Source: a virus
Virus record (IMG/VR): IMGVR_UViG_3300045988_176431
Location: 64,001-128,000 of that record
Direction: 5' to 3' (one strand)
DNA: 64,000 bases
A program made the translations under genes and the position numbers. The first letter of the stretch is position 1. Every line of letters begins with the position of its first letter. The notes below the pieces were generated by a model, which was not told the DNA's origin, did no database searches, and saw nothing but the letters and a program-made list of their open reading frames with translations. Below, in pieces: positions 2,376 through 56,762 of the stretch.

Positions 2376-5300
2376 ATGGAAAAAAAGAGTAAAGAGTTTA
2401 ATATACTCATCTCAGTTCCAGAGATTACTAATAAAAAAGATATGAAGAAGTTTTTAAAACCGATTTATATCATAGAAGATTATCTGTTAGATGAATCTCG
2501 TTATGGAGATTTAGAACAGACTATCAGAAATCTTCTTCGTGGATGTTTTCATATTAAAGAATGTAGAGAATATCCAATTGAGTTTAAGTTTTATCGAAAA
2601 GATAAAGAAACACATAAGTTGCAGATTCGAAGATTTTTATATAATCTTTATATTTGGAAACCATTTTGCATGTTAAATGAATTTCATATTCTGGATGAAA
2701 ATTATATTCTTTCAGAAGAAGAAATTCCAAATGTAACAGAGTTTTTGAACGAAAAAATACTTACCACTCTTCAGGATTATAACATTGAACAGATTTTGAT
2801 TAACGAATCAATCTCTAATGTATTATATAGTCTCCGTTCAATTTCATTAGATTTTAGTGATATTATGAATCTTACTTTTAGTGATCATGATTTCATTGAG
2901 ATGTTAAATGATCCAGAATATCGAGAGATTATGGAATTAAAGATTCCTGAAGATATGCAACCAATTGAAGTAGAAAAACTACTTTCTCAGTATCAACAAA
3001 GGTTGGTGAGAAAGTTAAAACAAGATAAAAATAATCCAGTAGGAATCATGCTTAGGGCTGGAACTGGTGTAAAAGAAAAACAGTTAGCAGAGTATATGAT
3101 TGCTATGGGATTGAAGCCAACATTAACTGGTGAAGTTATGCCTATACCAATTGAAACATCATCTCTATTAGGAGGTTTAAATAGACCATCGTATCAGTAC
3201 ATTGATGCGATAGCAGCCCGTAAACCGTAAACATAATCTGCGGTTTTAAAACCTATCTAATTGCGGGGAACTGTCTATAATGATTATTTACTAACTTATG
3301 ATGGTGACATACATAAGGGCAAGGGGTAACTCCTAAGGTATAGTAAAAAGAATAATCATTGACACAATCGACGCAGCGAAGTATCTTATTTATTTCATAA
3401 TAAATCATTATAAAGGAGATGATTTAATATGAAAGAAACATGGAAAAAATTTATTTATAATGATATCGAAACAAAATATAGCGTTTCTAATTTAGGAAGA
3501 GTTAGAAATGATAATACTAATTATATATTAAAACCACATGTTCATAAAAAGACAAAATATCACATGATCCCACTTACAATAAATGGAAAAACTAAATTGT
3601 TTAGCTTATCTAGAATGGTGGCAACATTATTTATACCAAATCCAAATAATTATGAAGAAGTAGATCATGTTACTTGTGATAGATATAGAAATGAAGCTCA
3701 TAATCTTGAATGGGTTACTCATGAAGAAAACATGAGAAGAGCGTTAGTAAACGGACTCGTTTACAAAAACGATGGAAGTATGAGATATGTATTTCATAAT
3801 GAAAATGATATTAGAAAATTATGTGAATTATTATCAAATACATGTATCCCTGTTGATGAGTTGTCTAAAATAACGAACATTAGTCAAAATACTATAAATA
3901 AAATACGACTAGGTAAAAGATGGAGAAATATATCAAAGGATTATGATTTTTCTGAATATAATAAATTTATACAAAAAAATTATATTATATCTCATTCTGG
4001 AGAAAATAATTCACAATCAAAGTATCCAGATACATTGGTACATTCTATATGTCATGAACTAGAATTAAACAGAAAAACAATAAGTGAAATTGCAAAAATG
4101 TTTAATGTTCAGAAGAATTACGTATATGAATTAAGAATAGGAAAAGTTAGAACCTTGATTAGTTCTCAATATGATGTAAGCAATCATGATTTAACCGAGT
4201 TTGGATATCATCAAAAAGATTTAAACAAAATAAATGTTTTATTGAAAAAGGGCTATACTGTCCGTGAAATTATAAATAAATTAAATCTTCCAGATAACAA
4301 GAAAACTATAGCAATGATATATGGAAGAAAAAGAAATATGAAATAAATAAGATATGAGTTCAACGACTATCGAAAGTATAGTTATAAGAGAAATCTTATA
4401 ATGAATAAACGAGTAGAGTAGACCAGAATATCTGGGTGCACGAAATTGGTGCTTTGCGAAACGGTAGGTATTATAAATATGGTAATAGTATTTATAATAA
4501 AGATATAGTCTATACATTATGGTGACATAATGAATTATTAGTGATTATGAATAAGAAATCAATGGGAAATGCAGGCTACTTCGGGAAGAAAGTATCTGAA
4601 TTATGTAGGACTGTATCTCTTTCTAATAAGGTTTTAAATTGTAAAACAAAGCATTTGATTAAATATGAGATTAAAAATAAGAAATATCTTATGAAATTAA
4701 ATGGTAAGTTTTATAAGATGAATCCTGATGATGAAGATTATAAGGTACTACATTATAAAGATTACGATTTGGTTGGTAAAACTATTTATGCAAGAGGGGC
4801 ACAAACATGTGCTTGTGGACAGAATCTTATTTGTCCGACATGTCTTGGAAAAATTGCGGATTTGAACTGGGATTTGAAAGATGGTATTGGTGTATTTGAG
4901 TCTCAGGAATTATCAAAAGATATTGAACAGAAGATTCTTTCTGGTAAACATCTGTTAACAACAAAGTCAGAGAAGATTGAATTTAGCGATGAATTCTATC
5001 AGTATTTTTCAATTGCTGTTGGAGAGATTTCTCCTATCTTTGATAATATTGATAATATCAATGATTTGGCAATTTACGTTGTACCAGAAGAGATTGAGAA
5101 AGTAGAAGAATATGATGCAGATTCTACTTATAATACTTATATTTCATCTGGAAGATTCTTTGTAAGAAATCTTAAAACAAAGAAAGATATTGAAGTTAAG
5201 ATTTTGAAAAAGAAAGAATTGTATATTACAAGCAATGTCATTAAATCAATTCGTAATAATAATGGTGTAATTAAGTTTAAGGATTTGGAAGAAGATGCTC

Positions 5301-5791
5301 CAATCTTTGAAGTTATCATCTTGAATAATGAGTTAACAAAGCCACTATACGAGTTAATCTCTTTATTGGATTCTGAGAAAAAAGAAACAATTGAAGACAG
5401 TACAATTGATACGTTCTCACAAAGATTTTTGGATATTATCATTGAATCTGGAATTGGAGCGTCAATGGTTGCTGCTGAAATTGTAATGAATCGTCTAATA
5501 CGAGAAAGTGATAATGTGATGGATCGTCCAGATTTCTCACAAGAGAAAATGCCAGATTATAATATTTATACGATTCGAAAGATACTTAGAAACAATGAGA
5601 GTATTACAATTGGTTTGGGATTTGAAAACTTAAAAGCTCAGTTATTAAATCCAAATGTTTCTCAGAGAACAGCACCATCTTATATGGATGCTTATTTCAA
5701 AGAAGAACTTCCTACAGAAATTTTAAAGAAGTTTGAACAAGAGGAACCAAAGAAAAAGCAGATGGATTATTATCTAAATGCTTCACACTAG
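2376..5791 (+). CDS. multisubunit RNA polymerase beta'-like subunit, C-terminal half (exons 2376-3228 and 4542-5791)
   Basis: Exon 1 ends ...LRAGTGVKEKQLAEYMIAMGLKPTLTGEVMPIPIETSSLLGGLNRPSYQYIDAIAARKP. Exon 2 continues (L)IMNKKSMGNAGYFGKKV. The join is colinear with bacterial beta' SGARG..Q..QL.GMRGLMA.P.G.II..PI...F.EGL...EY.IS.[24 protein letters not shown]. Interrupted by intron 1. Confidence 0.8.
3229..4541 (+). mobile_element. group I intron 1 (1313 nt, carries an HNH endonuclease ORF)
   Basis: P1 is exon AAACCGT paired with IGS GCGGTTT, with a terminal U-G. Core elements AATTGCGGGG (P), CGACGCAGCG (Q), GAGTTCAACGACTATCG (R) and AAGATATAGTCTA (S) are present. The 3' splice site after G4541 is the only in-frame, stop-free solution for a phase-1 exon. 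Confidence 0.85.
3429..4346 (+). CDS. intron-encoded HNH homing endonuclease, I-HmuI-like (NUMOD4 + HNH + HTH repeats)
   Basis: YSVSNLGRVRN (NUMOD4-like), EVDHVTCDRYRNEAHNLEWVTHEENMRRA (HNH_3-like) and C-terminal repeats ..ISQNTINKIRLGKRW... AAAGGAG RBS. The ORF sits in the P6 loop of intron 1. Confidence 0.8.
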   Translation: MKETWKKFIYNDIETKYSVSNLGRVRNDNTNYILKPHVHKKTKYHMIPLTINGKTKLFSLSRMVATLFIPNPNNYEEVDHVTCDRYRNEAHNLEWVTHEENMRRALVNGLVYKNDGSMRYVFHNENDIRKLCELLSNTCIPVDELSKITNISQNTINKIRLGKRWRNISKDYDFSEYNKFIQKNYIISHSGENNSQSKYPDTLVHSICHELELNRKTISEIAKMFNVQKNYVYELRIGKVRTLISSQYDVSNHDLTEFGYHQKDLNKINVLLKKGYTVREIINKLNLPDNKKTIAMIYGRKRNMK

Positions 5792-5798
5792 AAAAGTT

Positions 5799-5838
5799 AA
5801 GATGAGATTATCATAATCGATAATCTCATCTTATTTTT
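5799..5838 (+). terminator. rho-independent terminator
   Basis: AAGATGAGATTATC / GATAATCTCATCTT stem followed by ATTTTT. Confidence 0.65.
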
Positions 5839-5875
5839 AATATTTTAAAAAAACAAAGAAAGGTAGGTAATAATT

Positions 5876-6424
5876 ATGATGAAAATGAATGAATTACCAC
5901 AAAATGTAACAAAAGAAACAAAGATTAAGCTAGTAACAAATCCAGAGAAAATTAATTCTGGTGATCCTGAAGAATTAGAAACTTTGGATGTTAAAGTACA
6001 TTATTCTGATTTAAATGATACTCTTTATATTATACCAGATAAAACAGAAAGTACAACATATGACAGTTTAGTAGCAGCGATGTACATGATCTGTTCTATG
6101 GTAGAAGACGAGTATCAAACATTAACAGAAACTGATAAAGAAGAAATACGTGAAGAGGAAGAGAAACATCAAAAAGAACAGGAGGAAAAACGACAAAAAG
6201 AGTTAAATGAAACTATTGAGAAATATTGTGAGGAAAGTCAAATTGAAATGATTGAAAAGATTCGATTCGTTAAAGTAAAAGATGGTGTGAATATAAAATT
6301 GAATCTTCTGAATATTATTACTGAAATCTCTGAATTGGAGAAAGATGATGATGGAAAATACATCGTTCCTGATAACTGTATTTATATTGAGCAGAGGGGA
6401 ACCAGAAACAGCTGGTACTTATAA
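5876..6424 (+). CDS. hypothetical acidic protein (182 aa)
   Basis: AAGAAAGGTAGGT RBS block, and a glutamate-rich central region. Confidence 0.55.
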   Translation: MMKMNELPQNVTKETKIKLVTNPEKINSGDPEELETLDVKVHYSDLNDTLYIIPDKTESTTYDSLVAAMYMICSMVEDEYQTLTETDKEEIREEEEKHQKEQEEKRQKELNETIEKYCEESQIEMIEKIRFVKVKDGVNIKLNLLNIITEISELEKDDDGKYIVPDNCIYIEQRGTRNSWYL

Positions 6425-6905: not shown

Positions 6906-6921
6906 AAGAAAGGATGATAAC

Positions 6922-7626: not shown

Positions 7627-7650
7627 AGTTTTATAATGTATATAAATAAT

Positions 7651-7660
7651 TATATATTAT
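7651..7660 (+). promoter_or_regulatory. TATATATTAT motif (candidate phage promoter), copy a
   Basis: Exact 10-mer, intergenic, followed by a T run. One of nine exact copies. Confidence 0.35.
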
Positions 7661-10118: not shown

Positions 10119-12771
10119 TTGCCAGAAATACAAAAATATAACTTAAAAGATGAGTTAAAGGCTGCTGATGAGGAATATAAAAATTCAACAGCCCTTGTTG
10201 GTATGTCGGCATTAACTGAACCAAGATATACAAACTCAACAAGAACTCAAATGTTTACAAGTCATTTGAAACAGTTTTTGAATCTCATTCAACCGGAATT
10301 TCCAAGGGTGTTTACAAATGCAGAAAACGTAGTAGGAAAACATTCTTCTGCATATTACAAAACTAAAAATGACTTAGAAATTATTGAAAAGATTGAAAAG
10401 TATGGAGACATCTTAGAAGTGCCTTACATATATCATTTATTTGTATTTGACAAAAAGAAAAAACGTTATCGTGTTATTACACGAAAAGAAGTAGAAGAAA
10501 ATCTGACAGAGGATTTTGGTTATCATATGAATAATGAAGAGATTGACAGTTTTAAAGAAGGAGATATCATCCCAAAAGGAGATATTCTTTATAAGTCGAA
10601 TTCATATGATGAATCTATGAATTATCGTTATGGAGTAAATGCAACAGTACAGTATGTATTAAATCCATATACATCAGAAGATGCTGCTGATGTATCAGAA
10701 TCTTTTGCAAAGAAAATGACAACTTTGAAAGTGAAGAAAATTCCTTGGGGATTAAATAACAATGATATTCCTCTTAATTTATTTGGAGATGATGATGAAT
10801 ATAAGCCATATCCAGATATTGGAGAACCAGCATGTGGAATCTTTGGATGTTCAAGACCTCAATATAATGATCAGTTGTTGTTTGATTTTAAAGATTCAAA
10901 TTTAAGAACGATTAAAGATTCAGACCGTCCAGTATCATATCCAGGAAAAGGATTTATTGTCGATTATGAGATTTATTGTAATAATCCAGACATTGAAGAG
11001 AATTCTTTTAATAGTCAGATTATGACGTATTTAAAATCTCAGACAAAATACTGGAAAAAGATTTATAAAACAACAAAGAAGATTATTAATTCTGGTTATG
11101 ATTATGACAGAGAAATTGATTATCTTTATAAACGTGCAGATGAGTTTTTAGATGAAGATAAAAAATGGAAAGACGATTCTGTATTTGGTAACTTAAAAAT
11201 TGTAGCAACGATTGCAGAATATATTCCATTAAGGAAGGGGCATAAATTTACTGGTTAACATAACAGCCAGTCATATTAGGCGACTAATATGTTACAAACT
11301 CCATGAATTGCGGGGAACTCTCGTTAGGTTCTAGTTACTAAACTAAGATAGTGATATACTTAGTGGCAAAGGGTAACTCCTAAGGTATAGTAAAAAGACT
11401 AGAAATAGAGACAATCGACGCAGGGAAGTATCTTAATAATATAAGATATGACTTCAACGACTATCGAAAGTATAGGTTAAGAGAAATACTTAACTGAATA
11501 AACGAGTAGAGTAGACCAGAAGTCTGGGTGCACGAAATTGGTGCTTTACGAAGTGTGGAGCTCTTTATATTTGGTGACAGAATATAAAGATGAAGATATA
11601 GTCTAATCTATACTGAGAAGTATAGCTGTATAAAAACAGATATAAGTGTAACGAACTTATATGAATAATCATGCGTTATGGAAACAAATCTGTTGTTTCA
11701 CGAGTATTACCCGATAAAGATATGCCTCATACAAAAGATGGAAAAACTGTTGACGTTCGATTAAACTTATTAGCCATTATCAACCGTACAACAGGGTTTG
11801 TTCCTCATGAGTTATTTATTAACTTCATTTGTGATAGAGCAAGGGAGCAAATGAAAAAAGCAACTACGTTGAAAGAAAAAGAAAATATACTCTTTTCAAT
11901 CATTAAAGATTTGAATGAAAAACAGTATAAAAGTATGTATGCTTATTATAAAGATTTGAAAGATACAAAATTGAAAAAAGAATACATTGATGATTGTATT
12001 TATGAAGGTATCTTTATTCATCAGAATCCTGTTTCTGAAGATGAACCAATTCTTTATAAATTACAAAAGATGACAAAGAAATATAATTGGTTGGAACCTT
12101 ATCAGTTATATGTAACAATCGATGGTCACGAGATTCCTCAGATGATAAAAACTTACATGGGTGAGATGTACATGATTCGATTGAAACAAACTGACCAAAA
12201 GAATTTCTCGGTACGAAATACAGGAGCAATTAATACAAAAGAATTACCAGAACGAAGCTATAAGAATCGAAATCATCAGGATTTATATTCAGATAAAGCA
12301 ATTCGTTTTGGTGAGTATGAAACTCTTGCTATTATGACAGGTCTTTCAGAAGAAGAACTTGCTCTTTTCCATGCCTATTATCGTACTTCTATTAAAGGTA
12401 GAAAAGATGTGATTTCTCATATCTTTGAACCAGAAAAGAAATTAAGTGAAATTGATTCTTCACTTACAAATCGAACAGCAGAACTTTTTAATGTTATCTT
12501 TAAAGCATTATCAAATGAAATTGAATTTATTGATAGTGATAATATCGTAAAATCAATGGATAATATTCATGTTCAAGAATACACATATCATGGACAAACA
12601 TATTTCATGACAGAATATGAATTTTATCTATTTAAATTAGAAGATGAATTAAAAGAGAAGATTCTGTTAGAAACTCCTGGTTTAACAGATGAAGAATTAG
12701 ATGAGAGATTACATGAAGAATTAAAAGCATCTAAGAGAATTATGGGTGAACCTGTAAAAGATATGAAATAA
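10119..12771 (+). CDS. multisubunit RNA polymerase beta-like subunit, C-terminal half (exons 10119-11255 and 11674-12771)
   Basis: The splice joins ...RKGHKFTG|RYGNKSVVSRVLPDKDMPHTKDGKTVDVRLNLLAIINR. This equals bacterial beta K.aGRHGNKGVvS...MP...dG...D..LNPLGVPSRMN. TTG 10119 lies 8 nt after GGAGG. Confidence 0.85.
11256..11673 (+). mobile_element. group I intron 2 (418 nt, ORF-less, extended P1-P2 variant)
   Basis: P1 is exon ACTGGT paired with IGS GCCAGT, with a terminal U-G. The same P/Q/R/S core is present. The 3' splice site after G11673 gives an exact G|RYGNK junction. Confidence 0.85.
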
Positions 12772-18818: not shown

Positions 18819-21800
18819 TTGATTAAATATCTTAAAAATTATGCTTCTGAATTTGAAAGAGATTTAAATATTCCTCTTATGAACAAAGAAGCAGATAGAC
18901 CATTAGTTGAATATGTAATTGATTCATGGAAATCATTACAGATTCTTGATGGTATCGAATTTCTTGATTATGAGTATACAGAAAAAGAATCTGATATTGA
19001 GATTAATAAGTATATTTATAAACGTGAGAAAGGAAAACGCAAAAACGAGAAATTTGATTACAAATTTGTGGATGATAGTAGATGTGGACTTCTTACTGTC
19101 CGTATGAAATTATCTGCAATTGAAAAAGATTTCAAAACAGGTGATACGTATTTAAAAGAAAAAATTATTAAAAAGAGTATGTTGATTCCTTTACAGGATG
19201 ACAAAGGACTATTCTGTATCAAAGGAAAAAATTACTATTTGATTTAGTTTGATAGATCAAACAAAACTCTTCTAATTGCGGGGAACTCTCGTTAGGTCTT
19301 AACTACTAAACTAAGATGGTGACATACTTAGTGACAAGGGGTAACTCCTAAGGTATAGTAAAAAGGTTAAGAATAGAGACAATCGACGCAGCGAAGTATC
19401 TTATAAATAATAAGGTATAAGATATGAGTTCAACGACTATCGAAAGGATAGCATAAGAGAAATACTTATGTGAATAACTGAGTAGAGTAGACTAGTATAT
19501 ATTATACTAGGTGTACGAAATTGGTACTTTACGAAATGGAGAGCATATTATATTTGGTAATAGAATATAATGTGAAGATATAGTCTAATCCTCATGGATA
19601 ACATGATGGTGTAAATGTATCAGATGGTAGAAAAATCTACCTATACGTCAAATAATTCTGTTATTTTGAAATCTTTAATGCCTTTTATGATAAAAAGACA
19701 AATAACAAAACAGGAAGATATTCATGAAAATGAATATCAGATTCCTTATTATACCATTGATTTGTTTCGAAAAGATATTCCGATTATGCTTCTTTATGCA
19801 TCCAAAGGAATGAATCGTGCGTTACAATATGCTATTCAATCCTATCCTTATGTAGCAATTAACTTTGTTACAAAACCAAAAGAAACGGACAAAAAGCATA
19901 TTTATTTCCAGATATCTTCTAAGTTGTACTTAAAAGTACATAAGAAGTTATTTGAAAAGTTTCCATATATCCAATCCGTAGTTGGTGGTATTTTACATAT
20001 CTCAACGAATCGATTGACATTGGATAAATTGGATAATACAGATATCTGGATTAAGAAATTAAGTAATAATAACATTGAAAAAGGAAAGAATCTTTTAGAT
20101 TCTTTAAAACGTCTTTTAGATGTAACTACAAAGAAAATATTAAAAACAGATATATCAAACAAATTAGATGTACTTGCTGTTATTCGTTGGATGAGTCAAG
20201 ATTTCAATGAATTACGAATGAAAGATAATATGAATATTGAAAATAAGCGATTACGATGTAATGAATACATTGCATCTTTACTGACACAAGAATTTAGTAA
20301 GAAACTTAATCGTATTATGTCTCTAGGTGGAAAAGCAACCATTGATAATCTTAGAGAAATTTTCAAATTTCCAGGCGATAGAATTAGAGTGTCGCCGTTA
20401 AACCTATCTAATTGCGGGAAACTCTCGTTATGTTCTAGTTACTAAACTAAGATGGTGACATACTTAGTGGCAAAGGGTAACTCCTAAGGTATAGTAAAAA
20501 GACTAGAAATAGAGACAATCGACGCAGCGAAGTATCTTATAAGTATAAGATATGAGTTCAACGACTATCGAAAGGATAGCATAAGAGAAATACTTATGTG
20601 AATAACTGAGTAGAGTAGACTAGTATATATAAATACTAGGTGTACGAAATTTGTACTTTACGAAACGGTAGGCTCTTTATATTTGGTAATAGAATATAAA
20701 GATGAAGATATAGTCTAAACTTTATGGATAACATAGAGAATGATTCTAATTCAGAAGATGCATAGTAGTGGTGTATTCCGATTTGATGATAACATCAACG
20801 ATATGGATTTCTTTTCAAGGTTCAAATTCACGAATAAAGGACCTCACTCTGCAGGACAAAAGAATGGAAATAGTGTTGGTGTTAAGTACAGGGGTATGGT
20901 TGAATGCTCCTGTAAAACTCTTCTAATTGCGGGGAACTCTCGTTAAGTCTTAACTACTAACTTATGATAGTAATATACATAAGGGCAAGGGGTAACTCCT
21001 AAGGTATAGTAAAAAGGTTAAGAATAGAGACAATCGACGCAGCGAAGTATCTTCTATATATAAAATGGAAAGGAGGCAAAATCAAATGAAAAAAGTAATT
21101 GATTGTAAAAGAGTGATGCATGATAATATAAAATTAAATTATTTTATATTTACTGATGGAAGTATATTTAATGCTACAACTAATCATGAATTAAAACAAT
21201 ATAAAGATAAAGATGGATATCCTACAGTTTGTTTATCCAATAAAGGAAAACATTGGACAATTCATGTTCATCGATTAGTTGCGTTAACATTTATTCCAAA
21301 TCCATTAAATAAACCAGAAGTTAATCATATAGATGGTAATAAATCAAATAATGATATTAGTAATTTAGAATGGGTTACTGGAAGTGAAAATGTAAGACAC
21401 GCCTATCTCAATGGTTTACATGATAATGTAGCGATTGGTGAGAAACATGGTATGAATAAATATACTGAAAAACAAATTAAACATGTTTGTCAATTATTAG
21501 AAGAAAATTCTAATACACTCAATGAAATTGCTGAACTAACAAATGTTCCAAAATCAACAATTCATGATATTATATCAGAAAAATACTGGACTCATATTTC
21601 TAAAAAATATAAAATATCAAATTTTGATAAAAAATCTATTAGACGGTTAGATTCTCAAATGAAAAATGAAATGAGATATCTAATAAGAAAAGGATATCGT
21701 CAATGTGATATTTTAAGACATTTTAATTTAGAGACTAGTAAAAAGAATTATGGAATGATTAAAAGATATTATTATAAAATAAAAGAAGATACAAGTTCAT

Positions 21801-22381
21801 CGACTATCGAAAGTATAGGTTAAGAGAAATACTTAACTGAATAAACGAGTAGAGTAGACTGATCAATCAGGTGCACGAAATTGGTGCTTTGCGAAACGGA
21901 GAGCATATTATATTTGGTAATAGAATATAATATGAAGATATAGTCAGGTTATACAGTGATGTGTAAGTTTTAGATTCACCCATCAATGATTGGATATATT
22001 GATATGACTGTTTGCGGTAATTCTGACCCAGGCACATCGGGGCTTCTCTCGCCCTTTAGTAAGTTAAAAGGATTATCTTTTAATGATGATATGGAGCCAG
22101 ATAATTTTAAGTTTGAGTTCATAAAAGAGGTTAAGAAGATTATGGATGAAGAAGGAATTGATTATATTGATCTTGACTTTGAGAAGAAAGAAGATTACTA
22201 TTCCTTTGTCAATACTCTTCATGACTTTAATGTGGATAACATTCATGTCAATTATATTGAACGAGAAAAGGAATATGATAAAGTTATTCAAGAAGAGGAA
22301 GAAGATTTAGAAGAAACTTTATCATTCCAAAATAATAAACCAAAGAAGGATGATAAGAAAAAAGAAGCAAAGAAGAAATAA
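18819..22381 (+). CDS. multisubunit RNA polymerase beta-like subunit, N-terminal half (exons 18819-19244, 19618-20379, 20743-20895 and 21974-22381)
   Basis: Spliced junctions are ..FCIKGKNYYLI|YQMVEKS.., ..FKFPGD|ILIQKMHSSGVFRFDDNINDMDFFSRFKFTNKGPHSAGQKNGNSVGVKYRG and |IHPSMIGYIDMTVCGNSDPGTSGLL. These align with beta [63 protein letters not shown]. TTG start after AAAGGGGG. Confidence 0.8.
19245..19617 (+). mobile_element. group I intron 3 (373 nt, ORF-less)
   Basis: P1 is TTTGATT paired with GATCAAA, with a terminal U-G. The 3' splice site after G19617 is forced, because an in-frame TAA lies immediately upstream. Confidence 0.85.
20380..20742 (+). mobile_element. group I intron 4 (363 nt, ORF-less)
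   Basis: P1 is GGCGAT paired with GTCGCC. The 3' splice site after G20742 follows the P9 hairpin CTTTATG-gataa-CATAGAG. The alternative at 20736 is less likely. Confidence 0.8.
20896..21973 (+). mobile_element. group I intron 5 (1078 nt, carries an HNH endonuclease ORF)
   Basis: P1 is AGGGGT paired with GCTCCT. The 3' splice site after TAG (G21973) is forced by an in-frame stop. The junction KYRG|IHPS equals VRDVHPS. Confidence 0.85.
21086..21823 (+). CDS. intron-encoded HNH homing endonuclease, I-HmuI-like
   Basis: HRLVALTFIPNPLNKPEVNHIDGNKSNNDISNLEWVTGSENVRHA (HNH_3-like) plus an HTH, IAELTNVPKSTIHDIISEKYW. ATG 21086 follows GGAAAGGAGG. The last codons (..SSSTIESIG) run into the intron R element. 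Confidence 0.8.
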   Translation: MKKVIDCKRVMHDNIKLNYFIFTDGSIFNATTNHELKQYKDKDGYPTVCLSNKGKHWTIHVHRLVALTFIPNPLNKPEVNHIDGNKSNNDISNLEWVTGSENVRHAYLNGLHDNVAIGEKHGMNKYTEKQIKHVCQLLEENSNTLNEIAELTNVPKSTIHDIISEKYWTHISKKYKISNFDKKSIRRLDSQMKNEMRYLIRKGYRQCDILRHFNLETSKKNYGMIKRYYYKIKEDTSSSTIESIG

Positions 22382-43782: not shown

Positions 43783-46700
43783 ATGAAATATTTGCCAGTT
43801 AAAAAATCTAATCCAGTAGAGGAAATTGATCGCTCAAAATTAAAGAGCAAAATCAATATCTGGAAACCAAAGAAATCTGAGATTATAGTGGAACAAGATG
43901 GAAATATTTTTGTCTGTCATTTTGACAAGATTTTCAATCAACCAAATCTCAAACCCTTAACTAAATTTATTATTAAAAAATCTAGTTATATCAACCAATT
44001 ACCAGTCATTACAAGGTATACAAACTTTTTCATGAATTGTTATGATACAGAGAATGACTTAGCAATGGCTTATTTGAAGATTAAGTATGCTCTTGATAAA
44101 GAGAGAGTATTTAATGAAACAAATACTTCTGCATTAATTGATATGATATATGAGATTCTTTTTACACCAAGGCTTTGTGAAAAGATTACTCGTATGGTAG
44201 AAGAAAATTACTTAGATGATATCGAAAAAGGGGATGGAAAGAAATATAAAAAGAATAAAGACTACTTAGAAAGTCTTGAATTCACCAATGAACATATTAA
44301 GATTCTTCTTAGAATCTCATTTGGTATTAAAATCATGTCACCGATTCTTTTTCATTATCTTACGATTAATAATATGAATAAGTTGGATAAAGACAGTGAT
44401 TTGATTTACAAGTTCTATGAAAGACTGTTTCCTTTGTTCTCCGGAAACGTCAATATGTTTAATAAGCTCTTTGTTTATTGTAAAACAAAAGTACTGGATG
44501 CATCTGCACATAACAGTACAATCTTTGAACAAAGAGAAATTTTTGGTGTAGATAAGTATTCAGTTATTGATAAATTTGTGAGAAAAGTAATTATCTCAGA
44601 AAACATGGTTAAAGTATTTGATCATGTAAAACCTCTCTAATTGCGGGGAACTCTCGTTAGGTCTTAACTACTAAACTAAGATAGTGATATACTTAGTGGC
44701 AAGGGGTAACTCCTAAGGTATAGTAAAAAGGTTAAGAATAGAGACAATCGACGCAGGGAAGTATCTCTTATGAGATATGGCTTCATCGACTAGGGAAAGA
44801 CTAATTTATATTAATTAGAATCGAGTAGGTCCAATTATAGGACGAAATGTAGGTGAGTATATATAATATATACAAAAATCCGAAACGGGAGGCATTGATA
44901 TATTTAGTAATAGAATATATTAATGAAGATATAGTCAGTGTAATATAAAAACATGAAATACTTGTTCAATGAACACTGGGATAGACGTTTCATGTTCCAG
45001 TATAAAAACCTCTCTAATTGCGGGGAACTGTCTATAATGATTATTTACTAAACTAAGATGGTGACATACTTAGTGGCAAGGGGTAACTCCTAAGGTATAG
45101 TAAAAAGAATAATCATTGACACAATCGACGCAGCGAAGTATCTTATATGAGATATGAGTTCAACGACTATCGAAAGTATAATTATAAGAGAAATCTTATA
45201 ATGAATAAACGAGTAGAGTAGACTGATTTAATCAGGTGCATGAAATTGATGCTTTACGAAACGGGAGGTATTGATATATTTGGTAATAGAATATATCAAT
45301 AAAGATATAGTCTAATTAAAATAGGTGAAACAGAAAAAATACAAGGAGAACATTGTTGGATCAATATTAGGTTCAACCAAAACCTCTCTAATTGCGGGGA
45401 ACTATCTATAATTAATAACTACTAAACTAAGATAGTGATATACTTAGTGGCAAAGGGTAACTCCTAAGGTATAGTAAAAAGGTTATTAATTGATACAATC
45501 GACGCAGCGAAGTATCTCTTATGAGATATGAGTTCAACGACTAGGGAAAGCTAGACAACCATATTGATAGAAATATCTAAAAGAATATAATATTCTGATG
45601 GTTTGATGTGAGTAGGTCCAATGATAGGACGAAATGTAGGTGAGTATATATAATATATACAAAAATCCAAAACGGGAGGTATTGATATATTTGGTAATAG
45701 AATATATCAATAAAGATATAGTCTACATTGAAAAATGTGTTAATAAAACGATTAATTTAATAGTCGCAATGATATAAAGAAATTTATATCTGGACAAACC
45801 ATCCTAATTGCGGGGAACTCTCGTTAGGTCTTAACTACTAAACTAAGATAGTGATATACTTAGTGGCAAGGGGTAACTCCTAAGGTATAGTAAAAAGGTT
45901 AAGAATAGAGACAATCGACGCAGCGAATATGCTTTGAAATAAATAATAACATGTAAAGAAATAGGAGATAGATTAGGAATGACAAGAAATGCTGTTTGGA
46001 ATATTAAACAAAAAATAAATTAAACAAAATCAAAGCATAATGTTCAACGACTATCGAAAGTATAGGTTAAGAGAAATACTTAACTGAATAAACGAGTAGA
46101 GTAGACTGATTTAATCAGGTGCACGAAATTGGTGCTTTACGAAACGGATGGCGTATTATATTTGGTAACAGAATATAATACGAAGATATAGTCTAACCTA
46201 TGTAGTGATATATGGTATAAGTGTATTAAATTTCAGATGAATTATTTTCTTAAGGAGCAGTATGAGAAAACAATGACCGAGATTTCTAACACAAAAAATA
46301 GTGATGGATTATCCGGTCAAGATAAAATGGAAATGAATTTGACTAAGATTGATGAAGGTATCACAACTCTTAGTGAGTTCAATATTAAGAATTGTATTGA
46401 ACGTATTCAAAGAGAGATTGATATTCCAATCTCAGATGAAGAAATTCAATATTATAGGGACCATCATATTCCTAGCCCTATTCAGATTCAATTGGTATAT
46501 TCGTACTTTGCAGAATATTTTACGGATTATCGTGATTTGAACCTTTTAACAAGAAGAGATTATCTTCATTTATTACTTTTATTAAAGAAGAAACTCTTAA
46601 TTGAGGCTGGATATGATGAGAAAGAAAATGAATTTACAGATGCGATTCTTCCATATATTCTAACAGGAAATTTGGAAGAAAAAGTTTCTACTCGAATGAT

Positions 46701-46941
46701 TCGAAACAACAAGTTTATTTCAAAGATTGAAACGAATTATATGTATCAACAGTTAGTAGAAAAGAAGTATAAGCATCTGCAAGAATTAAAGAAAGACTAC
46801 ATATTACAAGTATTATCTTCGATTATCAATACGAATTTTACTTATGTAGTTTATGAGGAACCTGAAATGTTAGGAAAACCAATTGTTTATAATGAAGATA
46901 AAATCTCGGATGAACTCTTGTTTTTCTTAAAATGTATTTAA
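43783..46941 (+). CDS. hypothetical protein interrupted by four tandem group I introns (exons 43783-44610, 44956-44982, about 45325-45361, about 45738-45752, and about 46224/46237-46941)
   Basis: The ORF 43783-44640 runs into the intron P element, and the ORF ending at 46941 resumes after intron 10. The first three 5' splice sites are well supported. The last two micro-exon boundaries and their reading phase could not be resolved by hand. The start may be TTG 43792. Confidence 0.5.
44611..44955 (+). mobile_element. group I intron 7 (345 nt, ORF-less, type-B 3' half)
   Basis: P1 is CATGGTT paired with GATCATG. The 3' splice site after ..AACATG gives the in-frame 27-nt exon KYLFNEHWD. Confidence 0.75.
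44983..45324 (+). mobile_element. group I intron 8 (about 342 nt, ORF-less, type-A 3' half)
   Basis: P1 is CTGGGAT paired with GTTCCAG (7 bp, terminal U-G). The 3' end is provisional. Confidence 0.7.
45362..45737 (+). mobile_element. group I intron 9 (about 376 nt, ORF-less, type-B 3' half with an extra insertion)
   Basis: P1 is GTTGGAT paired with GTTCAAC (7 bp, terminal U-G). The 3' end is provisional. Confidence 0.7.
45753..46236 (+). mobile_element. group I intron 10 (about 484 nt, extended P1-P2 variant, degenerate ORF remnant in P6)
   Basis: The core P/Q/R/S elements are intact. P1 is only CGAT paired with GTCG, placed by analogy with introns 2 and 6. Both ends are provisional. A mini-ORF lies at 45979-46023. 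Confidence 0.6.
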
Positions 46942-50208: not shown

Positions 50209-50225
50209 AGAAAGGAGATTATATT

Positions 50226-52925: not shown

Positions 52926-55900
52926 GTGATTTTTGTTTTGGGTAAACAAATTGTAAGAATCAATCGACTCAGTTGGGATATTTTATTTTATGATGATATG
53001 ATAAATGGTGATGGTTTTATCATATCAGAACCTGCTGAAGTAAAAATCGATCGAGAAAGAAAAAAGTCTCTTTATGGTCCACAATCTCCACTCTATGGTA
53101 CAACGTATTCAGATGAGCAGGCATTTATTGAACGTTATCGTTGTGAGTGTGGAAATTTTAAAGGAAGACAATTTGCAGGGGAAGTATGCCCCATTTGTAA
53201 AACAAAAATTGAAAGTAAAGGAAGTAATGTAAAAACAACAGGATGGATTTGTACCGGAAATGCAAGATTTATTAATCCATTCTTTTATCAGCTTCTTGTA
53301 AAAGCGATTGGAAAGAAAATCTTTCCAGATATTATTGATTGTAAACAACGTGTCGATACAGATGGACACCGAAGTCAATATGTACCAGAAGATACAGAAC
53401 CACTTTCTCCTTATTCTGGATTTGGTATTGAAGAATTCATGAACCAATATGAAAATATTCTTACTTATTTTCAGACAGTAAGAAAACAAAAATACGATGA
53501 TCTTCAATATCTAAAAGAGAACAAATCTAAAGTATTTGCTTCTCATATTCCGATTTATACGACAATGTTACGTCCGCAAAGTGTCACAAGTGATACTTTT
53601 TATTTTAATGGTATTGATCGAGAAATCAATCCTCTCTTTAATCTTTCAGAAAGTATTAAAGATTGTAATCCAATTGAGCGTCCATTTATCTTACAAAGAA
53701 TACAAGAGCGTGTAAACAACATCTTTGAATTTAACTTTGATATGATTAATGGTAAAGAAGGATGGATTCGAGGAAAACTATTAGGTGGCTCGTTAGTGCG
53801 TTATAATTTGACGAGCTTTATAAACTCATCTAATTGCGGGGAACTCTCGTTAAGTCTTAACTACTAAACTAAGATGGTAACATACTTAGTGGCAAGGGGT
53901 AACTCCTAAGGTATAGTAAAAAGGTTAAGAATAGAGACAATCGACGCATCGAAGTATCTTAATATTATTATATATTTATAAGAAAGGTGGTGAGATAATG
54001 ACGTCACATATTATAAAATTTAACAACATGGACAGTGATTATGTCATTTATGAAGATTGCACAATTATTAATATAAAAACTAATCATATTATGAAACATC
54101 GAATAAGTAAAAGTACAGGACGAGTGTATGTTCGTTTAACTAATAATAAAAAAAGAAAAGAATATAGATTATCAAGATTAATGGCTACATATTTTGTAGA
54201 AAATCCTGATCCAAAAAATAAAGTTGATGTTCATCATAAAGATAAAAATGTATTAAATAATGTACCAAGTAATTTGCAATGGGTTACAAAAGAAGAACAT
54301 TATTTGATACATAAAGGTGATAAAAATCATCCATTTTCTAGTGGTGAAAATCATAGTGGTGCTATATTAACTAATGATCAAGTACATGAAATATGTAAAT
54401 TGATTCAAGATAACATTATGTCTCAAAATGATATTGCGAGAAAATATAAAGTAATGCCACATGTTATTCATGAGATTCGTTTAAAACATAATTGGAATGA
54501 AATAACAAAATATTACGATTTTTCAAAATATTCGTATGGGAATAATTTTCTAAAAGATGATAAAGTAAAAGAAATTTGTTATCTGATTGAATCAAATAAG
54601 TATACATTGATGGAAATATCAAAAAAATCAAAAGTTACTTATTCTACAATTCTTGATATTTATCATAAAAAACGATATAAAAGACTAAGTGATAATTATG
54701 ATTTTGATAGATTCAATAAGTTAACAAGATATAGCAAAGGACTTAAGAAAAAAATAAATTTTTTAATTAATGAAGGAAAATCAAATAATGAAATTAAAAA
54801 TATATTAAAATTAGATAATTGTGCAAAAACGAATACTCTATTGTGTAGAGAAAGAAAGAAATCAAATCAATAAAAAAATAATATTAAGATATGAGTTCAA
54901 CGACTATCGAAAGTATAGCATAAGAGAAATACTTATGTGAATAAACGAGTAGAGTAGACTAGTATATATTATACTAGGTGCATGAAAATTGATGCTTTAC
55001 GAAACGGTGAGTGTATTATATTTGGTAACAGAATATAATATAATGATATAGTCTAAACTTCTATGGATAACATAGAGAATATTTGAAATTATACGGCTCG
55101 TAACGTAATTATTCCAGATCCATCTTTACATGATGGGGAAATTGATGTATCTTATCATACATTTAGAATCTTATTTAAATATAAGATTATTTATTATATG
55201 ATGAAGATTAACGACATACAGTTATCAAAAGCATATCATAAATGGAAGAATAGTTATAAGTTTAATCAACACATTTATGAAATTATGTTGTACATCTTAA
55301 AGAAAGAAAAACCAAGAATATTAATCAATCGAAATCCGACACTAATAGAAGTTTGGTGTCATTAAACTCTTCTAATTGCGGGGAACTCTCGTTAAGTCTT
55401 AACTACTAAACTAAGATGGTAACATACTTAGTGGCAAAGGGTAACTCCTAAGGTATAGTAAAAATGTTAAGAATAGAGACAATCGACGCAGCGAAGTATC
55501 TTCAATATATAAAAATACTATAGTAATTGAGAGGTGATAAATATTGCCAAAGAAAAGAAAGAAATTAAGTGAATTTCTTTTATCATATTATAAATTAATA
55601 GAAGAAAGTGATGAAAAAGAATTATGGAAAGATATTAATTTAGGAGACTTCCCAATATACCAAATAAGTAATCATGGTAGAGTTCGAAGGAAAGATAGTA
55701 AATTCATAATTAATCCTTTTCATTCTTATCGAAAAGATAATAATGGTAACTTTAGATATGATAGACCAACTTATCTCAGAGTTCAATTATATTATTACAC
55801 TAATGGGGTAAGAATGAAAAAACATATGGAAATAAGTAGGCTTGTTGCAATAAATTTTATACCTATACCAAAAATATATACTGATAAGGGATTAGATGAG

Positions 55901-56762
55901 AATTCTTTAGAAGTAAATCATATAAAAGGTGGTTATGAAATTTACAATAATTTTGTATCAAATTTAGAATTGTGTACAACAAAAGAAAATGTAAAAAAAT
56001 CAATTGAAACAGGTTTGAGACATTCACCGTATGGAGAGAATCATCATAATACATTTTTTACAGAATATGATGTGATGCAAATATGTGAATGTATTGAAAA
56101 AGGTTTTAATGCAAAGTATACTTATTATAATATTGATTTATCTGATAAATCAATAACATATGATCATTTTAAACAAAATTTTTATAGTATAAAATATAAG
56201 AAATCTTGGAAATTTATAAGTCAAAATTATAATTTTTAATTTATTGAAGATATGAGTTCATCGACTAGGGAAAGCTAGACAACCATATTGATAGAAATAT
56301 CTAAAAGGACTCCACATCCTGATGGTTTGATAAGCGAGTAGGTCCAATCATAGGACGAAATGTAGGTGAGTATATATAATATATACAAAAATCCGAAATG
56401 GAGAGCAATGATATATTTGGTAACAGAATATATTAATGAAGATATAGTCAAACTGTATAGAGATATACTAGATTTATTGGAATTTCTATTCATTACTTTT
56501 AATGAAAATAAGAAATGTAAAAAAGGATGATACAGATTTTACATTATCGGTTCCACTTGCGATTTTACCGGGATTAAATGCCGATTTCGATGGAGATGTT
56601 CTTAATATGCTTGGTATGATGAATGAAGAATTCGTGAGAATGTTCAGAAAGTTTGACCCAATTAAGCGAATGATTATTTCAAGAGATACCGGACTTATCA
56701 ATAATTATTTTACAATTGAAAAGTCACAATTGATTGATTTATATCATTTTGCTACAGTATAG
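52926..56762 (+). CDS. multisubunit RNA polymerase beta'-like subunit, N-terminal half with the catalytic NADFDGD loop (exons about 52926-53794, 55086-55343 and 56480-56762)
   Basis: Zn finger RCECGNFKGRQFAGEVCPICKTKIE. Junction GKLLGGS-L-NYTARNVIIPDPSLHDGE equals LLGKRVDYSGRSVIvvGP.L. Junction LINRNPT-L-NFYSLLL...LSVPLAILPGLNADFDGDVLNM equals LLNRAPTLHR...NADFDGDQM. The track start TTG 52884 lies inside the hairpin; GTG 52926 or TTG 52938 follow AAAAGGAG. Confidence 0.8.
53795..55085 (+). mobile_element. group I intron 11 (1291 nt, carries an HNH endonuclease ORF)
   Basis: P1 is GCTCGTT paired with GACGAGC (7 bp, terminal U-G), giving phase 2. The only compatible 3' splice site is after G55085, because TGA lies in frame just upstream. 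Confidence 0.85.
53998..54873 (+). CDS. intron-encoded HNH homing endonuclease, I-HmuI-like
   Basis: SRLMATYFVENPDPKNKVDVHHKDKNVLNNVPSNLQWVTKEEH, plus HTH repeats (IARKYKVMPHVIHEIRLKHNW and ISKKSKVTYSTILDIYHKKRY). AAAGGTGGTG RBS. Confidence 0.75.
   Translation: MTSHIIKFNNMDSDYVIYEDCTIINIKTNHIMKHRISKSTGRVYVRLTNNKKRKEYRLSRLMATYFVENPDPKNKVDVHHKDKNVLNNVPSNLQWVTKEEHYLIHKGDKNHPFSSGENHSGAILTNDQVHEICKLIQDNIMSQNDIARKYKVMPHVIHEIRLKHNWNEITKYYDFSKYSYGNNFLKDDKVKEICYLIESNKYTLMEISKKSKVTYSTILDIYHKKRYKRLSDNYDFDRFNKLTRYSKGLKKKINFLINEGKSNNEIKNILKLDNCAKTNTLLCRERKKSNQ
55344..56479 (+). mobile_element. group I intron 12 (1136 nt, carries an HNH endonuclease ORF, type-B 3' half)
   Basis: P1 is GACACT paired with GGTGTC, giving phase 2. 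The 3' splice site after G56479 is the best stop-free solution. The alternative after G56512 would delete 11 aa. Confidence 0.75.
55544..56239 (+). CDS. intron-encoded HNH homing endonuclease, I-HmuI-like (shorter)
   Basis: YQISNHGRVRR (NUMOD4-like) and SRLVAINFIPIP...EVNHIKGGYEIYNNFVSNLELCTTKENV. TTG start 7 nt after GAGAGGTG. Confidence 0.7.
   Translation: MPKKRKKLSEFLLSYYKLIEESDEKELWKDINLGDFPIYQISNHGRVRRKDSKFIINPFHSYRKDNNGNFRYDRPTYLRVQLYYYTNGVRMKKHMEISRLVAINFIPIPKIYTDKGLDENSLEVNHIKGGYEIYNNFVSNLELCTTKENVKKSIETGLRHSPYGENHHNTFFTEYDVMQICECIEKGFNAKYTYYNIDLSDKSITYDHFKQNFYSIKYKKSWKFISQNYNF

What the first reader, a model, noticed from the sequence alone, without database searches (positions are those of the whole stretch)
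2376..56762. A complete set of split beta/beta' genes of a phage multisubunit RNA polymerase, dispersed, and every one interrupted
Four genes together cover a bacterial-type catalytic core:
- beta N-half (18819-22381)
- beta C-half (10119-12771, with the GRHGNKG-type motif)
- beta' N-half (about 52926-56762, with the Zn finger and NADFDGD)
- beta' C-half (2376-5791, with the SGARG..GLMA..ARKG..GY region)

Splitting beta and beta' into N and C halves encoded by separate, scattered genes is the hallmark of phiKZ-like and AR9/PBS1-like jumbo phages. This is established knowledge as I recall it. I also recall that AR9 RNA polymerase genes contain self-splicing introns.

No alpha, omega or sigma homologue is visible. 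All four genes carry at least one intron (1, 1, 3 and 2), so polymerase assembly depends on seven splicing events. Whether this set is the virion or the non-virion enzyme cannot be told from the sequence.
Basis: partly seen in the sequence, partly recalled or inferred. Interest (0 to 1): 0.65.

Follow-up and report, generated by a model that had tools for sequence, protein, structure and literature searches.

The report
Intron-riddled non-virion RNA polymerase genes
An uncultivated AR9/PBS1-like giant phage encodes all five subunits of its second (non-virion) RNA polymerase in this window, and every gene is broken by self-splicing introns of one family (11 in all), which is an extreme example of a known phenomenon rather than a new kind of system.

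Summary
The four genes at the stated coordinates are the split beta/beta' halves of a jumbo-phage multisubunit RNA polymerase. They carry 7 group I introns: 1, 1, 3 and 2 in genome order (b'C, bC, bN, b'N).

Three corrections:
1. The set can be assigned. All four are orthologues of the AR9 non-virion RNAP subunits gp154, gp089, gp105 and gp270 (E 4e-46 to 5e-90). AR9's virion paralogues score E>0.05.
2. Gene 43783-46941 is the homologue of AR9 gp226, the sigma-like specificity subunit. It is cut by four more introns, leaving micro-exons of 27, 37 and 13 nt. The holoenzyme therefore needs 11 splicing events.
3. All 11 introns, plus one in the DNA polymerase gene, belong to one family (5' cores 71-97% identical). 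Each has its own guide sequence. Five of the 12 carry HNH homing-endonuclease ORFs.

A 93-99% identical IMG/VR contig has 18 introns in the same five genes. Exons show pN/pS 0.03. Uninterrupted homologues align gap-free across the three bN junctions.

Introns in these genes are already known in AR9 and Staphylococcus jumbo phages, so this is a new, extreme member of a known kind. A side lead is that the window encodes ThyX and its gp226 homologue lacks the uracil-pocket signature.

The parts
2376..5791 (+). nvRNAP beta' C-half gene (AR9 gp154 orthologue). Exons 2376-3228 and 4542-5791, 700 aa.
   Evidence: phmmer vs PDB 7s00_D 3.9e-46. tblastn vs AR9 g154 2e-46, with virion paralogue g264 at E=0.69. 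PHROG 3015 1e-54.
3229..4541 (+). Group I intron in b'C, inserted in the AARKP|LIMN..NAGY (bridge-helix) coding region. Carries HNH/NUMOD4 endonuclease ORF 3429-4346.
   Evidence: nhmmer core hits 6e-50 and 8e-48. P1 AAACCGT/GCGGTTT with U.G, terminal G. Pfam NUMOD4 2e-8 and HNH_3. The junction coincides with a break in the relative contig.
10119..12771 (+). nvRNAP beta C-half gene (AR9 gp089 orthologue). Exons 10119-11255 and 11674-12771, 744 aa.
   Evidence: PDB 7s00_C 5.2e-90, phiKZ gp71 7e-18. Pfam RNA_pol_Rpb2_6 3.5e-11. PHROG 3295 8.5e-88.
11256..11673 (+). ORF-less group I intron in bC, splitting the GR(H/Y)GNK motif.
   Evidence: nhmmer 2e-51 and 3e-52. P1 ACTGGT/GCCAGT. Break at the same nucleotide in the relative.
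18819..22381 (+). nvRNAP beta N-half gene (AR9 gp105 orthologue). Four exons, 582 aa.
   Evidence: PDB 7s00_c 4.8e-52, with the alignment continuous over all three junctions. Uninterrupted metagenomic homologues are gap-free at all three junctions.
19245..19617 (+). Group I intron bN-1 (ORF-less).
   Evidence: Rfam RF00028 59.9 bits, above the gathering score of 50. P1 7 bp and P10 8 bp.
20380..20742 (+). Group I intron bN-2 (ORF-less).
   Evidence: Rfam RF00028 57.1 bits. P1 6 bp and P10 10 bp.
20896..21973 (+). Group I intron bN-3, with HNH endonuclease ORF 21065-21823.
   Evidence: nhmmer 3e-55 and 2e-52. Pfam HNH_3 7.5e-11. P1 9 bp and P10 5 bp.
43783..46941 (+). Fifth nvRNAP subunit gene (homologue of AR9 gp226, the sigma-like promoter-specificity subunit). 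Exons 43783-44610, 44956-44982, 45325-45361, 45740-45752 and 46224-46941, 540 aa.
   Evidence: PDB 7s01_A (gp226) 3.3e-13 over residues 45-539 vs 19-463. PHROG 25005 2e-18 over profile positions 16-463 of 464. Synteny GroEL-g227-g226 as in AR9. Family motif restored across exons 3/4/5.
44611..46223 (+). Four ORF-less group I introns (44611-44955, 44983-45324, 45362-45739, 45753-46223), separated by micro-exons of 27, 37 and 13 nt.
   Evidence: nhmmer core pairs. Rfam sub-threshold hits of 43.6, 34.4 and 37.3 bits for three of them. P1 4-8 bp and P10 6-9 bp for each. Breaks at the same nucleotides in the relative.
52938..56762 (+). nvRNAP beta' N-half gene (AR9 gp270 / phiKZ gp55 orthologue). 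Three exons, about 465 aa, with Zn finger and NADFDGD.
   Evidence: PDB 7s00_d 3e-39 and 7ogp_A 2e-21, with the alignment continuous across both junctions. PHROG 2987 3e-56.
53795..55085 (+). Group I intron b'N-1 (GGS|LNYTARNV), with HNH endonuclease ORF 53998-54873.
   Evidence: nhmmer 2e-55 and 6e-55. Pfam HNH_3 1.6e-7. P1 8 bp and P10 8 bp. 79% match to a Twortvirinae DNA pol I intron.
55344..56479 (+). Group I intron b'N-2 (NRNPT|L), with NUMOD4/HNH-like ORF 55544-56239.
   Evidence: nhmmer 7e-56 and 3e-34. Pfam NUMOD4 1.7e-5. P1 6 bp and P10 10 bp.

Best explanation
The window comes from an uncultivated jumbo phage of about 250 kb and 28% G+C, a distant relative of AR9/PBS1 (25-37% amino-acid identity).

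What it encodes. On one strand, within 55 kb, it encodes the complete five-subunit non-virion RNA polymerase of that phage group: b'C, bC, bN, a gp226-like sigma-equivalent, and b'N. In AR9 this enzyme needs no alpha, omega or sigma, and its holoenzyme recognises late phage promoters.

How the genes are interrupted. All five genes are interrupted by 11 group I introns of a single family. These make up 45% of the gene loci. Most of the sites that can be mapped sit in highly conserved motifs: the bridge helix, GRHGNKG, the RxDYSGRS region, NRxPT, and the beta VHPxxxGR region.

How the ORFs are restored. Each intron copy carries its own internal guide sequence, complementary to its flanking exons (P1 and P10). 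Self-splicing of the primary transcripts is therefore predicted to restore each open reading frame exactly.

What the introns are. They are mobile selfish elements. Four of the 11 carry I-HmuI-like HNH homing endonucleases in the P6 loop. These can drive homing into intron-less alleles of co-infecting relatives.

Shown versus inferred. Shown: gene identity, orthology, intron family, exact junctions, purifying selection. Inferred: splicing in vivo, late-gene function, endonuclease activity.
For: Orthology:
- Every RNAP piece hits only AR9 nvRNAP genes. Spliced products: g154 2e-46, g089 9e-89, g105 1e-51, g270 3e-30; virion paralogues score E>0.05.
- PDB best hits are the five chains of the AR9 nvRNAP holoenzyme.
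- PHROG RNAP families match at near full length.
- GenBank annotations of the best tblastn hits read 'non-viral RNA polymerase'.

Introns:
- Rfam RF00028 is above the gathering score for two introns and sub-threshold for three.
- All 12 copies are linked by nhmmer at E values down to 1e-57, weakest 4e-21.
- The 5' cores are 71-97% identical.

Junctions:
- Every 5' exon ends in U paired to a G. Every intron ends in G. P1 is 4-9 bp. An adjacent P10 of 5-10 bp is found for 9 introns; for the other 2 it is offset by 1 nt.
- The spliced ORFs have no internal stops.
- Alignments to AR9 run unbroken through the junctions.
- All 11 junctions coincide with breaks in a 93-99% identical contig, which also has 7 extra introns.
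- Removing two of those extra introns by the same rule recreates the window sequence exactly.
- Three uninterrupted homologues at 45-52% identity are gap-free at the three bN junctions.

Function:
- 169 synonymous versus 23 nonsynonymous differences, pN/pS 0.032.

Literature:
- nvRNAP is 4 split subunits plus gp226/gp68 (PMC7598289).
Against: - No RNA data. Splicing is predicted, not observed.
- Intron g226-D has only a 4-bp P1, compensated by a 9-bp P10.
- The intron copies are repeats (up to 97% identical) in metagenome-derived sequence. Some differences in intron number between the window and the relative could be assembly effects.
- The window's gp226 homologue lacks the helix 2.1bis signature that is conserved in all six characterised family members. 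Its promoter specificity may therefore differ from AR9's.
- A strict AR9 early-promoter matrix is not enriched in the window: 1 hit versus 0.75 expected.
- Only about 64 kb of about 250 kb was seen, so absence of alpha, omega and sigma is shown only for the window.
Confidence: 0.9

Rival explanations
1. The four (five) genes encode the virion-packaged RNA polymerase that is injected and transcribes early genes.
For: In AR9 it is mostly the virion RNAP genes that carry introns: g078, g145 and g189 are joined from 3, 3 and 6 pieces.
Against: - tblastn of the spliced products against AR9 gives 3e-30 to 9e-89 for nvRNAP genes and E>0.05 for virion genes.
- A gp226 homologue, the fifth nvRNAP holoenzyme subunit, is present in conserved synteny.
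- Separate virion-type genes (hits to AR9 g189 at 2e-47 and g078 at 5.5e-28) lie outside the window in the close relative.
Confidence: 0.02
2. The pieces are decaying fragments of cellular rpoB/rpoC, or phage pseudogenes, not a working enzyme.
For: Most exon pieces hit no Pfam RNAP domain. The genes are heavily interrupted, with 45% of each locus intron on average.
Against: - For bC and b'N, cellular, archaeal or eukaryotic RNAP subunits score only E=5.5e-9 or weaker, against 3e-39 to 5e-90 for AR9.
- The spliced ORFs are full length with intact catalytic motifs.
- pN/pS is 0.03 between two genomes.
- Guide sequences are matched to every junction.
Confidence: 0.01
3. The interruptions are not removed at the RNA level. 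The exons would be translated as even more finely split subunits, or the inserts would be inteins or dead relics.
For: Jumbo-phage RNAPs tolerate splitting of beta and beta' into separate polypeptides (PMC7598289). Seven of the 11 introns were not found by Rfam.
Against: - Six of the 11 junctions fall inside codons, at phases 1 or 2.
- Micro-exons of 13-37 nt cannot be genes.
- The inserts contain stops in the exon frame.
- Two introns pass Rfam's gathering score, and all the others are homologous to them.
- P1/P10 and the terminal G are present at each junction.
- Uninterrupted homologues are collinear across the junctions.
Confidence: 0.04
4. The introns are not merely tolerated parasites. 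Either their endonucleases serve as weapons against co-infecting relatives, or the 11 obligatory splicing steps time the onset of late transcription.
For: - A PhiPA3 intron-encoded HNH endonuclease in an RNAP gene gives a competitive advantage over PhiKZ (PMC11620839).
- Occupancy differs between the window and its relative at 7 RNAP sites plus UvsX, so intron-less targets exist in nature.
- HEG-plus introns in the window (b'C, b'N-1, DNA pol) face HEG-less introns at the same sites in the relative, so those sites are occupied there.
Against: - No experimental data for this phage.
- Most copies are ORF-less.
- The pattern equally fits the standard invasion/decay cycle of selfish homing elements.
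- No evidence for regulated splicing.
Confidence: 0.25

Closest known systems
Bacillus phage AR9/PBS1 non-virion RNA polymerase (gp270, gp154, gp105, gp089 + gp226; PDB 7S00/7S01)
   Same: - The same five subunits, the same split points of beta and beta', and full-length collinear alignments.
- Conserved GroEL-g227-g226 synteny.
- No alpha, omega or sigma in the window.
   Different: - Only 25-37% identity.
- AR9 has one intron in these five genes (in g270, inside the DYDGD motif); the window has 11, at other sites.
- The uracil-pocket signature of gp226 helix 2.1bis is not conserved: V206->T, W208->F, Y210->Q.
- The window encodes ThyX, which AR9 lacks.
phiKZ non-virion RNA polymerase (gp55, gp71-73, gp74, gp123, gp68; PDB 7OGP)
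   Same: Homologous b'N (2e-21) and bC (7e-18). A five-subunit enzyme with an unrelated-looking fifth subunit (PMC7598289).
   Different: Much more distant than AR9. No significant hit of the window's fifth subunit to phiKZ gp68 in the PDB search.
Intron-disrupted RNAP genes of Staphylococcus jumbo phages MarsHill/Madawaska/Machias, and of AR9
   Same: Group I introns interrupt virion and non-virion RNAP subunit, DNA polymerase and terminase genes. Intron number and position vary between close relatives.
   Different: - Here every one of the five nvRNAP genes is hit.
- All introns are one family.
- The specificity subunit alone carries 4 introns (6 in the relative), with micro-exons down to 13 nt.
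- I did not see the per-gene table of that paper, so the comparison of counts rests on the text only.
Group I introns with HNH (I-HmuI-type) nicking endonucleases in SPO1/SP82 and Twort-like phage DNA polymerase genes; PhiPA3 gp210 intron
   Same: - ORF in a peripheral loop of a group I intron.
- HNH_3/NUMOD4 domains.
- Insertion in conserved motifs of polymerase genes.
- 79% nucleotide match of the core to a Twortvirinae DNA pol I intron.
- Concept of homing and interference competition.
   Different: - Twelve copies in 64 kb, with site-specific guide sequences.
- The endonuclease ORFs are only 26-36% identical to each other, while the ribozyme cores are 71-97% identical.
- Activity untested.

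Membership tests
AR9/phiKZ-type non-virion multisubunit RNAP | beta' and beta each encoded as separate N- and C-terminal genes that together cover the catalytic core (Zn finger, NADFDGD, bridge helix, GRHGNKG-type motif) | tested here: met
   Spliced products of 465-744 aa align end to end with AR9 gp270, gp154, gp105 and gp089.
AR9/phiKZ-type non-virion multisubunit RNAP | Closer to non-virion than to virion paralogues | tested here: met
   AR9 nv genes score 3e-30 to 9e-89; virion genes score E>0.05. Single best places on nv genes in 27 and 47 phage records.
AR9/phiKZ-type non-virion multisubunit RNAP | Fifth subunit homologous to AR9 gp226 / phiKZ gp68 | tested here: met
   Gene 43783-46941: PDB 7s01_A 3.3e-13, PHROG 25005 2e-18, synteny. 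Homology to phiKZ gp68 itself was not detected.
AR9/phiKZ-type non-virion multisubunit RNAP | No alpha, omega or sigma-70 family subunits | tested here: met
   Pfam scan of the 48 other window ORFs found 18 families, none of them sigma, alpha or omega. This covers only the 64-kb window.
AR9/phiKZ-type non-virion multisubunit RNAP | Absent from virions; transcribes late genes | not testable with these tools
   Needs proteomics and transcriptomics.
Uracil-dependent (AR9-like) promoter recognition | gp226 helix 2.1bis signature Y-x-D-x-V-[IM]-W-x-[YF]-[LI], with the invariant valine (V206) that excludes thymine | tested here: not met
   MAFFT of seven family members: all six characterised phages keep the signature, while the window has AHNSTIFEQR. 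gp105 R363 is conserved, K375->N. Alignment at about 25% identity, so confidence is moderate.
Group I self-splicing intron (Rfam RF00028) | Match to the covariance model at the curated threshold | tested here: met
   59.9 and 57.1 bits against a gathering score of 50 for bN-1 and bN-2. 43.6, 37.3 and 34.4 bits for three gp226-gene introns. The remaining copies are joined by nhmmer at 1e-17 or better.
Group I self-splicing intron (Rfam RF00028) | P1 with U.G at the 5' splice site, terminal G, P10 with the 3' exon, exact restoration of the reading frame | tested here: met
   All 11 introns. Frames are open. Natural intron-less alleles equal the predicted ligated exons at two sites.
Group I self-splicing intron (Rfam RF00028) | Guanosine-dependent self-splicing | not testable with these tools
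   Requires in vitro transcription and splicing, or RNA-seq.
HNH homing endonuclease (I-HmuI-like) | HNH_3 catalytic motif plus NUMOD/HTH DNA-binding modules, encoded inside the intron | tested here: met
   ORFs 3429-4346, 21065-21823 and 53998-54873 hit HNH_3 and/or NUMOD4. ORF 55544-56239 hits NUMOD4 only. All hit AR9 g271. Nicking activity was not tested.

The most novel reading that the evidence does not exclude
This lineage may be the first AR9-type phage with thymine rather than uracil DNA, so its five-subunit non-virion polymerase would read template-strand promoters with a re-shaped base pocket.

Evidence pointing that way:
- The window encodes a ThyX thymidylate synthase.
- It lacks the dTMP-phosphatase homologue next to the DNA polymerase gene, where AR9 has one.
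- Its gp226 homologue has lost the otherwise invariant D-x-V-I-W-x-Y uracil-pocket signature.

In addition, the single-family burst of 11 to 18 introns, with 13-nt micro-exons clustered just upstream of, and overlapping, a conserved gp226-family motif that includes AR9's promoter-contact residue Y263, could make holoenzyme production depend on ordered splicing.
Probability: 0.3. Interest if true: 0.65.

Novelty: new member of a known kind. Interest (0 to 1): 0.45.

Why it matters
It extends the AR9/PBS1-type two-polymerase strategy to a deep-branching, uncultivated clade.

It gives the heaviest intron load I could document for one enzyme complex in this phage group: 11 introns in the five subunit genes here and 18 in a sister genome, against 1 in AR9.

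The pair of near-identical genomes with different intron and endonuclease occupancy is a natural experiment on intron gain, endonuclease loss and exchange between copies.

The diverged promoter-recognition helix together with ThyX offers a natural variant for testing how uracil-specific promoter reading evolved.

Tried and rejected
- Megablast of the RNAP regions against GenBank phages found no relative, only a 124-nt intron match.
- Pfam on single exons failed for all pieces except one bC piece.
- I first took the micro-exon 'KYLFNEHWD' as matching AR9 'KYLFTFKYP'. The family alignment shows that match is coincidental, and that the conserved motif is the one rebuilt from exons 3/4/5.
- A strict AR9 early-promoter matrix gives 1 hit versus 0.75 expected. 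The shorter core TATATTAT is enriched (35 versus 20.6 +/- 4.6), but I did not establish it as a promoter.
- The sigma-70-type promoter scan is not enriched (125 versus 134).
- The intron in locus L014 of the relative is in an NrdD-like gene, not an RNAP gene.
- tblastn with the N-terminal half of the fifth subunit alone found only a weak BpSp hit.
- My first chaining of mRNA-to-contig hits was faulty and was redone.
- The AR9 genome paper (PMC13189113) is not held.
- The intron 25-mer is absent from 185,579 bacterial and archaeal genomes, so there is no host clue.
- The regex for 5' anchors failed and was replaced by 25-mer anchors.

Full report
**Setting.** The window is 28% G+C, and almost all its genes are on the + strand. 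It has no near-identical GenBank phage.

**Comparison with AR9.** I ran tblastn of every stop-to-stop frame against the AR9 genome, fetched in five pieces with its annotation. The result shows an AR9-like replication and transcription module: UvsX, SbcC, helicase, split family B DNA polymerase, GroEL, g227 and a DnaQ exonuclease. Every RNAP piece hits only AR9's non-virion RNAP genes, namely g154, g089, g105 and g270.

**Exon-intron structure.** All the gaps between RNAP ORFs contain one recurring sequence. Rfam places two copies above the group I intron gathering score (59.9 and 57.1 bits) and three more below it. Profile HMMs built from the 5' and 3' cores find 12 copies in the window:
- 7 in the four beta/beta' genes,
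- 4 in gene 43783-46941,
- 1 in the DNA polymerase gene.

The 5' cores are 71-97% identical, with a mean of 87%.

For each intron the following hold:
- The upstream exon ends in U, paired to a G of an internal guide sequence.
- P1 is 4-9 bp.
- The intron ends in G.
- The segment just 5' of the guide pairs with the first bases of the downstream exon. This P10 is 5-10 bp and adjacent to P1 in nine introns. In b'C and bC it is 7 and 6 bp, offset by one base, as judged by eye.

Splicing at these nucleotides gives open frames of 700 aa (b'C), 744 aa (bC), 582 aa (bN) and about 465 aa (b'N).

**Identity of the enzyme.** The spliced products match the chains of the solved AR9 non-virion RNAP:

| Product | AR9 chain | E-value |
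|---|---|---|
| bC | gp089 | 5.2e-90 |
| bN | gp105 | 4.8e-52 |
| b'C | gp154 | 3.9e-46 |
| b'N | gp270 | 3e-39 |

The alignments run unbroken through the junctions. The phiKZ non-virion subunits gp55 and gp71 follow at 2e-21 and 7e-18. For bC and b'N, cellular, archaeal or eukaryotic RNAP subunits score E=5.5e-9 or weaker. The searches with bN, b'C and the fifth subunit returned no other RNAP chain within the thresholds used.

Against the AR9 genome the virion paralogues score E>0.05.

A 93-99% identical IMG/VR contig carries virion-type genes just left of the window. They hit AR9 g189 at 2e-47 and g078 at 5.5e-28. The lineage therefore has both enzymes.

**The fifth subunit.** Gene 43783-46941 follows the GroEL and g227 homologues, exactly as g226 does in AR9.
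- Its large exons align collinearly with gp226.
- The spliced 540-aa product hits gp226 in the PDB at 3.3e-13, over residues 45-539 versus 19-463.
- It hits PHROG 25005 'RNA polymerase' at 2e-18, over profile positions 16-463 of 464.

The gene contains four introns and micro-exons of 27, 37 and 13 nt. Skipping the 13-nt exon breaks the frame. With it, the family motif S[YF]xxxV[IL]K..Y.F...Y is rebuilt across exons 3, 4 and 5. The holoenzyme therefore depends on 11 splicing events.

**Independent checks of the junctions.**
1. The window's spliced mRNAs align to the relative's genomic DNA in blocks. The block ends coincide, within 2 nt, with all 11 junctions. The relative has 7 further introns inside exons that are continuous in the window, giving 18 in the five genes.
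2. Removing two of those extra introns by the same U|...G| rule recreates the window sequence exactly.
3. Three metagenomic homologues of bN at 45-52% identity are single uninterrupted ORFs. They are gap-free at all three bN junctions.
4. Between the window and the relative, the spliced frames show 169 synonymous and 23 nonsynonymous differences, pN/pS 0.032. These are working genes.

**The mobile elements.** Five of the 12 introns carry HNH/NUMOD4 ORFs related to AR9's intron endonuclease g271. The ORFs are inserted in what Rfam aligns as the P6 terminal loop. They are only 26-36% identical to one another. In the relative, the b'C, b'N-1 and DNA polymerase introns lack their ORFs. The relative has an intron in UvsX where the window has none. 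The nearest intron copies are often in different genes. An exact 25-mer of the core occurs in IMG/VR only in that one contig, and in no sequenced bacterial genome.

**Comparison with what is known.**
- The review of jumbo-phage RNAPs describes the four split subunits plus gp226/gp68 and the lack of alpha, omega and sigma.
- The Staphylococcus jumbo-phage study states that these RNAP genes are frequently intron-disrupted and that intron content varies between close relatives.
- AR9's annotation shows 9 introns in its virion RNAP genes and 1 in its non-virion genes.
- An intron-encoded HNH endonuclease in a PhiPA3 RNAP gene mediates interference competition.

The kind is therefore known. What is new is a deep-branching member in which all five non-virion genes are hit by one intron family.

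**A side lead on mechanism.** AR9's holoenzyme requires uracils at positions -11 and -10 of the template strand. The -10 pocket is built by gp226 V206/I207 and gp105 R363/K375. V206 is invariant in uracil-DNA phages, and a V206G change lets the pocket accept thymine.

In a seven-member alignment, all six characterised phages keep Y-x-D-x-V-[IM]-W-x-[YF]-[LI], but the window has AHNSTIFEQR. The window also encodes ThyX. Uracil-DNA phages instead encode enzymes that remove dT nucleotides. This suggests, but does not show, a thymine-DNA lineage with altered promoter reading.

**Caveats.**
- No RNA or protein data.
- The sequence is metagenome-derived and contains repeated introns.
- Only a quarter of the genome was seen.
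- Alignments of the fifth subunit are at about 25% identity.

Noticed in passing
window 33786-37231: [quoted passage not shown] The relative contig has the intron without the ORF.
   Followed up: partly
window 62625-63266: ThyX flavin-dependent thymidylate synthase (Pfam Thy1 1e-54, RHRIASFSQESTRY), next to a guanylate kinase. This is unexpected for an AR9-like phage, because the characterised members have uracil DNA and AR9 has no homologue.
   Followed up: partly
window 48170-51313: Three ORFs, including a QueC-like protein (PHROG 1550, 5e-8), are absent from the 93-99% identical IMG/VR contig. This is an indel between sister genomes, and possibly relates to 7-deazaguanine.
   Followed up: no
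window 25632-27632 (assignment presumed from size): A full-length polyphosphate kinase (Pfam PP_kinase N, middle, C1 and C2 domains, up to 9e-68) is encoded among the window ORFs. This is an unusual auxiliary gene for a phage.
   Followed up: no
relative contig IMGVR_UViG_3300045988_176405, 56993-62242 (loci L009/L016): Virion-type RNAP genes (hits to AR9 g189 and g078), with one intron of the same family at 60961-61290, lie about 1-6 kb left of the window's first base.
   Followed up: partly
relative contig 71335-72541 versus window 8828/8830: The relative has a 1.2-kb intron (with an ORF-sized insert) in the UvsX-like recombinase gene. The window allele is intron-less.
   Followed up: partly
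L014 (relative contig 196673-202842) and L009 (40543-54778): Further introns of the family lie in an anaerobic ribonucleotide reductase (NrdD-like) gene, which also seems to hold an intein (C...HNC), and in the large terminase gene.
   Followed up: partly
window 45934-46040 (inside intron g226-D): An insert of about 100 nt with a 14-codon ORF (MTRNAVWNIKQKIN) is absent from the other ORF-less copies. It may be the remnant of a lost endonuclease gene.
   Followed up: no
relative contig 109369-109401 versus window 19585-19617: The 3' tail of the relative's fourth gp226-gene intron reads the same as the tail of the window's bN-1 intron (CTAATCCTCATGGATAACATGATGGTGTAAATG), while the window's own copy at that site differs. 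This suggests exchange between intron copies at different loci.
   Followed up: no
window, e.g. 7653, 9267, 17926, 25592, 33698, 43743, 49412, 56787: TATATTAT, the core of the AR9 early promoter AAATATATATTAT, occurs 35 times against 20.6 +/- 4.6 expected. 25 of the 35 are on the + strand. Several lie just upstream of genes, including 33 nt before the gp226-like start.
   Followed up: partly
window 1-20000: Terminator-like hairpins are enriched (16 versus 4.0 +/- 1.8). Several sit between genes, e.g. 2320-2345 before b'C, 12780-12816 after bC, and 18750-18781 before bN.
   Followed up: no
window 9348-10103: The ORF ending immediately before the bC start has a weak PemK/MazF-like toxin hit (E 0.006, below the Pfam cut-off).
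   Followed up: no
L025 (Listeria phage LPJP1, MZ422438.1 216277-218118): The gp226 homologue of LPJP1 is annotated as two adjacent CDSs, suggesting an unannotated interruption or frameshift there too.
   Followed up: no
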